64,000 bases of DNA, taken from Eledone cirrhosa. Its lineage: Eukaryota. The stretch covers positions 6,634,001 to 6,698,000 of the forward strand of contig OZ024757.1 of assembly GCA_964016885.1 (NCBI GenBank), in the 5' to 3' direction. The position numbers were made by a program, and so were the translations under genes. Shown one piece after another: positions 44,400 through 44,516 of the stretch. A model generated the notes under the pieces. The model was given only the letters and a program-made list of their open reading frames with translations. It did no database searches and was not told where the DNA came from. Every line of letters starts with the position of its first letter. Position 1 is the first letter of the stretch.

Positions 44400-44404
<5 letters not shown>

Positions 44405-44516
44405 AAAAAGTATGACCCCGACGGCAGAGCTCAAGCCGTTTCGACGGCTACTTCGAGTCCAGAAATAGCCGTCGAAACGGCTTGAGCTCTGCCGTCGGGG
44501 TCATACTTTTTCCTAT
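44400..44516. repeat. Perfect 51-bp palindrome made of a hammerhead 3' half and its reverse complement
   Basis: Arms 44400-44450 and 44466-44516, 15-nt spacer. Confidence 0.95.

What the first reader, a model, noticed from the sequence alone, without database searches (positions are those of the whole stretch)
44400..44516. Hammerhead converted into a perfect fold-back palindrome centred on its own stem II
Seen: the right arm reads TAGCCGTC-GAAA-CGGC-loop-GCCG-TC-GGGGTC, i.e. the stem II 3' strand, GAAA, stem III, cleavage triplet and stem I of a hammerhead. The left arm, where CUGANGA should be, is instead the exact 51-bp reverse complement. A homologous 3' half (17152-17188, minus) also breaks off in stem II. 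Inference: reverse transcription or replication stalls and self-primes at the ribozyme hairpin, a possible mechanism for the inverted pseudo-LTRs of Penelope elements. Both strands carry a half ribozyme that a full-length family member could complement in trans.
Basis: partly seen in the sequence, partly recalled or inferred. Interest (0 to 1): 0.75.

Follow-up and report, generated by a model that had tools for sequence, protein, structure and literature searches.

The report
Penelope palindromes end at RNA start
This hairpin is one of more than 11,000 similar mini-insertions of a Penelope-type jumping gene, and their junctions suggest that both cut ends of the DNA copied the element's RNA until they ran off its likely capped start inside the ribozyme, rather than one copy folding back on itself, which makes the poorly understood copying mechanism of these elements testable.

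Summary
The palindrome is real: exact 51-bp arms, and the same junction in five paralogous loci. It is the minimal insertion of a Hydra-type Penelope-like element; 11,823 such palindromes exist genome-wide, with heterogeneous centres. Intact copies carry a full hammerhead, mostly with a U3-A8 core; canonical CTGANGA occurs in only 9 copies. The breakpoint hotspot is real (79 of 80 sampled short arms start within -10..+11 of one A), but fold-back self-priming fails. In 768 insertions the inverted arm is tail sequence that the other arm mostly lacks (49 of 50 checked), and either arm reaches further 5' about equally often (26:24). An untemplated G precedes that A in 1,911 of 9,760 arm ends, against 6 intact copies; in L1 this marks a copied RNA cap. 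Best reading (0.6): both nicked target strands prime at two internal sites, and both cDNAs run off an RNA 5' end inside helix II and are joined. No RNA data were available. Trans-complementation is unlikely: the hairpin buries the half ribozyme. The scan reached a similar reading earlier on other DNA of this genome (e1-9525717).

The parts
44347..44402 (.). (TA)n target microsatellite, left side; its last ATA overlaps the arm end
   Evidence: same context in most loci
44401..44454 (-). Short (tailless) arm: inverted 5'-truncated copy running from about +7 to internal end site 1 (...TTCCTA); one mismatch at 44451
44455..44455 (+). Single G supplied neither by the parent (T or C there) nor by the continuation of the partner arm; candidate copy of the RNA cap
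   Evidence: the cap reading is inferred
44456..44595 (+). Long (tailed) arm: starts at the hotspot A(+1) and ends at internal end site 2 (...TTTGTTA)
44466..44501 (+). 3' half of the hammerhead: helix II 3' strand 44466-44473, GAAA 44474-44477, helix III 44478-44494 with a loop holding palindromic GAGCTC, GTC triplet ending at 44496, helix I 3' strand 44497-44501
44516..44595 (+). 80-nt one-sided tail between the two end sites; in full-length copy L109 it lies between the hammerhead and the first Met of the ORF
44594..44640 (.). (TA)n target microsatellite, right side
17138..17188 (-). Solo tailless arm of a diverged subfamily, in (TA)n on both sides; 5' end at about +11

Best explanation
The palindrome is the shortest insertion product of a Hydra-type Penelope-like retroelement, likely made when both nicked strands of a (TA)n target primed reverse transcription at two fixed internal sites and both cDNAs ran off a probably capped RNA 5' end inside hammerhead helix II before being joined head to head. 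Shown: family identity, (TA)n targets, two fixed outer ends used once each per insertion, a sharp 5' limit around A(+1), arms that need not overlap, correlated arm lengths, and an excess of untemplated G at -1. Inferred: priming on both strands (by analogy with the anole element in vitro); that the limit is a physical RNA 5' end; that this end is a capped transcription start; and joining by end-joining with little or no microhomology, sometimes after a short snap-back. If so, the 5' copy of the ribozyme in the transcript would be only a half and could not cut, while the 3' copy would be whole. The template could be the 5' end of the full mRNA or short RNAs started at the same A in the minis themselves; these were not separated.
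For: Scale: 11,823 close palindromes, i.e. 23,646 of 60,943 exact core matches (39%), reversed-pattern controls 0. Hotspot: among the first 100 core hits on C1 (99 retrieved), 80 are short and 79 of these start within -10..+11; 19 are long. Summed contig depth in run X1 rises from 47-132 thousand upstream to about 3 million from the hotspot on. Two primings: 62 of 64 palindromes have exactly one tailed arm; 5' reach 26:24:12; 57 of 62 spacers distinct; 768 tail-only partners, with the core arm tailless in 49 of 50 and starting at -6..+5 in 50 of 50. Shared template end: 0 of 40 short insertions whose partner reaches the hotspot have a partner that passes it; 7.7 expected if independent, P=2e-4. 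Cap-like G: 1,911 G and 440 A at -1 among 9,760 arm ends, against 6 G and 20 A in intact copies. One-base spacers on C1:1-209.5 Mb: 41 G:C against 6 A:T, although T is the templated base (by eye); 7 of 10 such loci belong to subfamilies whose intact copies have T at -1. G occurs on both arm types. Precedent: extra G from the cap at full-length L1 5' junctions (PMC11702581, passage); two internal RT starts and both-strand extension in the anole element (PMC11167929); TSS inside the pLTR in Penelope and Chlamys.
Against: No RNA 5' ends were seen; the start site is inferred from DNA alone. Arm starts spread from about -6 to +11, with +2 and +7 as common as +1 (12, 11 and 12 of 80), and most arm ends that reach +1 continue with the templated T (62 of the first 100 rows, by eye), so there must be several starts or end trimming. 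The limit also coincides with the apical loop of an inner hairpin of helix II, as a cut or stop in that loop would predict. Some G at -1 can come from short templated pieces (TTCTG), and in 3 of 10 one-base spacers the C may be templated. In the tail-only class only about 6 of 100 listed junctions show a clearly untemplated G (by eye). A terminal-transferase preference for C would give the same G at an uncapped end (own knowledge). In D. virilis Penelope the start lies upstream of the hammerhead. The 99-hit sample covers only the first 13.8 Mb of one contig; the set mixes several searches and counts at least one locus twice.
Confidence: 0.6

Rival explanations
1. Two primings as above, but the RNA 5' end is made by a cut (nuclease, small-RNA slicing or hydrolysis) in the AU-rich apical loop of helix II, not by transcription start; the extra G is ordinary untemplated addition.
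For: The 5' limit (-4 to -6) matches the start of the 3' strand of an inner hairpin, whose pairing is kept in the subfamily with C at -1 (by eye). It explains correlated arms and the spread of starts equally well.
Against: It does not by itself predict a single G peak at A(+1), which lies inside the predicted stem and not in the loop. The site reads like a pyrimidine-A initiator (TTAGTC/TCAGTC; consensus recalled, not tested).
Confidence: 0.17
2. Both reverse transcriptases stall at a protein-bound or tertiary-folded helix II / loop II on a longer RNA, and the stalled cDNAs are joined.
For: The hotspot lies inside a well-paired ribozyme (helix II outer 99%, helix III 97% paired in 52 distinct motifs, partly by construction of the search). 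A block that holds for a whole RNA molecule would also correlate the arms.
Against: A structural stop is expected at the 3' base of a helix, not after its 3' strand has been copied (own knowledge). An untemplated G at one fixed base points to a template end. A second ribozyme-like family shows no such hotspot in 26 of 26 copies.
Confidence: 0.13
3. One reading: one cDNA stalls at the hairpin, folds back and copies itself to give the inverted arm. Self-priming has been proposed for Penelope palindromes before (PMC3846280).
For: Near-perfect arms and correlated arm lengths; in the window copy the tailed arm is the longer one. Short snap-back pieces such as TTCTGG or TATTT sit at some junctions; snap-back after full-length synthesis is known for R2 (PMC11371274, passages).
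Against: 768 insertions with tail-only partners; the tailless arm holds 5' sequence absent from the tailed arm in 24 of 50 untied palindromes; site 1 is also the end of solo arms and of full elements; one palindrome (L155) has arms with different subfamily haplotypes.
Confidence: 0.07
4. A MITE-like DNA transposon that moves as a fixed palindromic unit, its centre eroding after insertion.
For: Inverted arms flanked by TA; tens of thousands of copies.
Against: The ends are two different sites, not terminal inverted repeats; centres nearly all differ (57 of 62); the arms are the end of a Penelope-like element and share its subfamily variants.
Confidence: 0.03

Closest known systems
Hydra clade of C-terminal EN+ Penelope-like elements (Craig et al. 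2021, PMC8557442; passages, section 11 and supplement hits seen)
   Same: Single RT + GIY-YIG ORF with DKT, CxCX5C linker, CxxC and CxH; (TA)n targets; partial tandem plus inverted 5'-truncated copy with a one-sided tail; hammerhead near the end.
   Different: RWR in place of RWK; tail 80 nt, not 30-40; U3-A8 core with a long helix II, whereas Hydra-1_Obim has CTGAAGA with a short loop II; the core 11-mer is absent from the supplement text held. No truncation hotspot inside the ribozyme was described in what I read.
PAc (Poseidon of Anolis carolinensis), in vitro mechanism (Frangieh et al. 2024, PMC11167929; parts 1-2 of 4 read)
   Same: Two internal RT start sites bounding the tail, both target strands nicked and extended, AT-rich target, hammerhead at the pLTR-ORF junction.
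   Different: There the start site used did not differ between strands; here each insertion uses each site once (62 of 64). The parts read do not address where cDNAs end or how inverted arms are joined.
PLE hammerheads (Cervera and de la Pena 2014, PMC4209133; parts 1-2 of 4 read)
   Same: Type I hammerhead in the pLTR; U3-A8 covariation already reported in Cercyon elements; palindromic loop III; motif pairs on opposite strands 100-700 bp apart.
   Different: Here helix III has 4 bp and helix II is long; most genomic copies keep only the 3' half.
Penelope elements of Adineta vaga (PMC3846280; passages read)
   Same: Head-to-head inverted pLTRs, palindromes at the junction, optional tail, Inr-like motif in the pLTR.
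   Different: Interpreted there as self-priming on an antisense template; the junction statistics here argue for two primings on a sense RNA.
L1 full-length insertions with extra G, and twin priming (PMC11702581; passages read)
   Same: Extra G at the 5' junction from the cap; second target strand primes on the RNA; end-joining at the inversion point.
   Different: L1 twin priming copies non-overlapping parts of the RNA from a poly(A) 3' end; here two internal starts 80 nt apart copy the same short stretch.

Membership tests
EN+ Penelope-like element | Single ORF with RT and C-terminal GIY-YIG endonuclease | tested here: met
   L109:3179-5536, 786 aa open, with YRDD and a C-terminal YIG. Motif-based: Pfam gave 0 families and PDB 0 matches.
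EN+ Penelope-like element | Partial tandem forming pseudo-LTRs | tested here: met
   L109: truncated unit followed by a full unit, repeats 97-99% identical
EN+ Penelope-like element | Inverted 5'-truncated copy and one-sided tail | tested here: met
   62 of 64 palindromes have one tailed arm; long examples L018, L107, L109, L112; tail 80 nt
Hydra clade | DKT, CxCX5C linker, CxxC and CxH around the conserved E and N | tested here: met
   DKT 184, CNCPDRSIC 639, CNLC 737, CKH 765; definition
Hydra clade | RWK motif | tested here: inconclusive
   RWR at 104
Hydra clade | Insertion into (TA)n | tested here: met
Hydra clade | Canonical hammerhead (reported as readily detected in the clade) | tested here: not met
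   Core is TTGANAA or CTGANAA; CTGANGA in 9 copies only. Hence filed as Hydra-type by protein motifs, with a variant ribozyme.
Hydra clade | Phylogenetic placement and absence of the CCHH motif | not tested
   No tree or alignment to published Hydra proteins was run; likeness to Hydra-1_Obim was judged by eye
Type I hammerhead ribozyme | Three helices around the core, GAAA and NUH triplet (intact copies) | tested here: met
   52 distinct motifs: helix I 89%, II 99%, III 97% paired; GTC in 47. Little compensatory change, so pairing is conserved rather than shown by covariation.
Type I hammerhead ribozyme | Watson-Crick pair at positions 3-8 | tested here: inconclusive
   U3-A8 in 78 of the first 100 listed, with N7 taking all four bases; C3-A8 mismatch in 21; U3-G8 in 1 (by eye)
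Type I hammerhead ribozyme | Self-cleavage | not testable with these tools
   No assay; only 4 of 21 direct head-to-tail junctions end exactly at the predicted cut
Type I hammerhead ribozyme | Complete core in the window copy itself | tested here: not met
   5' half absent; no Rfam hammerhead match in the window at E up to 10
MITE (DNA transposon) | Identical terminal inverted repeats and a fixed internal sequence | tested here: not met
   Two different end sites; 57 of 62 centres distinct
Non-LTR retrozyme | Tandem non-coding monomers each with a complete hammerhead | tested here: not met
   Head-to-head arms with half ribozymes; the parent is a coding element

The most novel reading that the evidence does not exclude
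The element starts transcription inside its own hammerhead, so its RNA carries a disarmed half ribozyme at the 5' end and a whole one at the 3' end, and is terminally redundant over about 41 nt (start to cut site). Reverse transcription then begins with a retrovirus-like strong-stop cDNA from both target strands; transfer onto the 3' repeat would regenerate pseudo-LTRs, while failure to transfer leaves tens of thousands of mini-palindromes that may themselves be transcribed and re-copied.
Probability: 0.2. Interest if true: 0.8.

Novelty: new variant of a known kind. Interest (0 to 1): 0.6.

Why it matters
How Penelope-like elements, the retroelements closest to telomerase, build inverted pseudo-LTRs and tails is an open question; self-priming was the published guess for junction palindromes. 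This family offers over ten thousand independent minimal events whose junctions favour two primings on one RNA end and point to a single base as the RNA start, so one 5'-end mapping experiment and one in vitro reaction could settle it. It also means that an estimated 38,000 short insertions (62 per 99 core hits, extrapolated from one stretch of C1) that look like MITEs or microRNA hairpins are retroelement by-products, and that descriptors needing CTGANGA would miss this ribozyme family.

Tried and rejected
Rfam scan of the window: no hammerhead match; the microRNA-family hits on the palindrome are below gathering score and reflect any long hairpin. Pfam and PDB searches with the ORF found nothing. 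RNA evidence: no RNA holder listed; the four runs held are contigs of unrecorded kind and cannot show starts or strand. Jump from the RNA 5' end onto a ribozyme-cut 3' end: 28 matches, 7 were palindromes lacking one base, and of 21 direct junctions 4 end exactly at the cut; several others end at another GTC, so this is inconclusive, and a transfer by homology would leave no trace. A 3' splice-site or branch-point origin of the limit (the site reads TTTAG|TCCAG) was considered; no shared upstream exon was seen among 80 short arms, so it was set aside. Promoter motifs downstream of +1 were compared from memory only and not used as evidence. Mini-specific lineages: short and intact copies share the main subfamily variants, so self-propagation was neither shown nor excluded. 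In one search the partner labels for long arms were faulty and were not used. Literature searches that found no paper on this hotspot; the library lacks most subscription journals and Repbase, and bioRxiv supplements were closed.

Full report
Observation. The palindrome is as described: exact 51-bp arms at 44400-44450 and 44466-44516 with a 15-nt spacer, far beyond chance (z -21). The right arm holds the 3' half of a hammerhead and then an 80-nt extension to 44595; both ends lie in (TA)n. The solo fragment at 17152-17188 is real. The same junction is present in five paralogous loci on C18 whose flanks are 89-98% identical, so it is one old insertion, later duplicated, and unlikely to be an assembly artefact.

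Family. Searching the genome (3.0 Gb, an animal; the host group was not determined) gave longer copies whose upstream part encodes an endonuclease end and a full-length copy, L109, with a 786-aa ORF in partial tandem with an inverted copy at its 5' side. The ORF has YRDD, a C-terminal YIG, DKT, CxCX5C, CxxC and CxH, and RWR in place of RWK. This matches the description of the Hydra clade of Penelope-like elements (PMC8557442 section 11); Pfam and PDB gave no hit and no tree was made. It is a different family from Hydra-1_Obim, judged by eye from supplement passages. The hammerhead lies just before the tail and the ORF start.

Ribozyme. 6,123 copies carry the 5' half. Of the first 100 listed, 78 read TTGANAA with all four bases at position 7, 21 CTGANAA and 1 TTGAGGA (by eye). 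Canonical CTGANGA occurs in 9 copies. U3-A8 was already reported in a schistosome Penelope-like element (PMC4209133, parts 1-2 of 4). Helices are well paired in 52 distinct motifs, with little covariation. Activity is untested.

Hotspot. There are 60,943 exact copies of a 16-base core, and 11,823 close palindromes account for 39% of them. Of the first 100 hits on C1, 99 were retrieved: 19 are long and 80 short, and 79 of the short start within -10..+11 of the A in AGTCCAG. Summed contig depth in a public run jumps at the same place (possibly the assembled sample). A second family in this window, with a rearranged hammerhead-like motif, has no hotspot at its motif: 26 of 26 non-paralogous copies run further 5'.

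Fold-back or two primings. 62 of 64 palindromes (four paralogues dropped; a mixed set with at least one locus counted twice) have exactly one tailed arm; 57 of 62 spacers differ; the tailed arm reaches further 5' in 26, the tailless arm in 24, with 12 ties. A fold-back from the tailed cDNA cannot give a tailless arm with extra 5' sequence, and a fold-back from the tailless cDNA cannot give the tail. In 768 insertions the inverted arm begins with tail sequence and meets the core arm within 45 nt; in 49 of 50 examined the core arm has no tail, and all 50 start at -6..+5 (the pattern itself fixes the +5 side). This agrees with the anole element, which nicks and extends both strands from two internal starts (PMC11167929, parts 1-2 of 4), and disagrees with self-priming as proposed for rotifer Penelope palindromes (PMC3846280, passages).

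What sets the limit. Arm lengths are coupled: among 62 short insertions, 40 have a partner reaching the hotspot and none passes it, against 7.7 expected if independent (P=2e-4). Among 4,880 palindromes with both arms reaching +1, the base at -1 is G in 1,911 and A in 440 of 9,760 arm ends, while intact copies have G there 6 times and A 20 times (denominator about 6,100 by the similar pattern). One-base spacers on the same 209.5 Mb of C1 are G:C 41 times and A:T 6 times, though T is templated (by eye); 7 of 10 checked belong to T-type subfamilies. The window copy has such a G at 44455. An extra G at full-length L1 5' junctions is attributed to the cap (PMC11702581, passage). I infer a capped RNA start at A(+1). 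Against this: starts spread from -6 to +11 with +2 and +7 as common as +1; 62 of the first 100 rows continue with T; the limit coincides with an apical loop of helix II; some G may be templated by snap-back; D. virilis Penelope starts upstream of its hammerhead (PMC2377424 passages); and no RNA ends could be examined.

Trans complementation. The 5' half of an intact copy binds a free 3' half by -13.7 kcal/mol but gains nothing on the palindromic RNA. In PAc, ribozyme cleavage was not needed for insertion in vitro.

Strong-stop reading. A start at +1 and a cut after 44496 would make the RNA terminally redundant by 41 nt. Direct junctions landing exactly on the cut are rare (4 of 21), and transfer by homology would be invisible, so this stays the novel case at 0.2.

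Known and new. Inverted copies, tails, (TA)n targeting, U3-A8 cores and two internal starts are published. I found no paper on a truncation hotspot with a cap-like G inside a Penelope ribozyme (limited library; bioRxiv supplements not seen; the 2026 retrozyme preprint seen as passages only). My reading was noted, before the scan's notes were shown; the scan had reached a similar one on other DNA of this genome (e1-9525717), which is not independent support.

Noticed in passing
window 47154-47291: Second (TA)n-embedded mini-palindrome with a one-sided tail, from another family whose motif reads GAAA...CTGATGA (rearranged hammerhead order). Only this copy and three paralogues fold at this point; 26 other copies run further 5'.
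   Followed up: partly
window 34402-34752: 157-bp inverted repeat (99%) holding two opposed histone 3' stem-loops that pass Rfam's gathering score (34510-34554 minus, 34600-34644 plus), inside a larger inverted pair 32985-33438 / 35180-35633.
   Followed up: no
window 61751-61935: Nested palindromes sharing a middle arm, next to a TA run.
   Followed up: no
window 20443-20544 and 53535-53590: Near-perfect palindromes (50-bp and 27-bp arms) inside microsatellites.
   Followed up: no
window 2839-3542, 13834-15027, 48240-49463, 62821-63860: 84-bp tandem units in duplicated blocks, the period expected for C2H2 zinc-finger arrays (label from own knowledge); the region is segmentally duplicated on C18.
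   Followed up: no
L111 (G000:C1:21325000-21332000): Arms of this family lie tail-to-tail around an inverted pair of a different RT + GIY-YIG ORF; nested insertion or cross-mobilisation.
   Followed up: no
L121, L218 and rows: Runs of up to 12 T directly before AGTCC, longer than the parent's TTT; may be reiterative copying at the template end.
   Followed up: no
G000:C1:261500148 and C1:301810255: Junctions with a short direct repeat of the first bases after +5, as a template jump at the RNA end would give.
   Followed up: no
L155 (G000:C1:13301055-13301100): The two arms carry different subfamily haplotypes before end site 1, suggesting two RNA templates in one insertion.
   Followed up: partly
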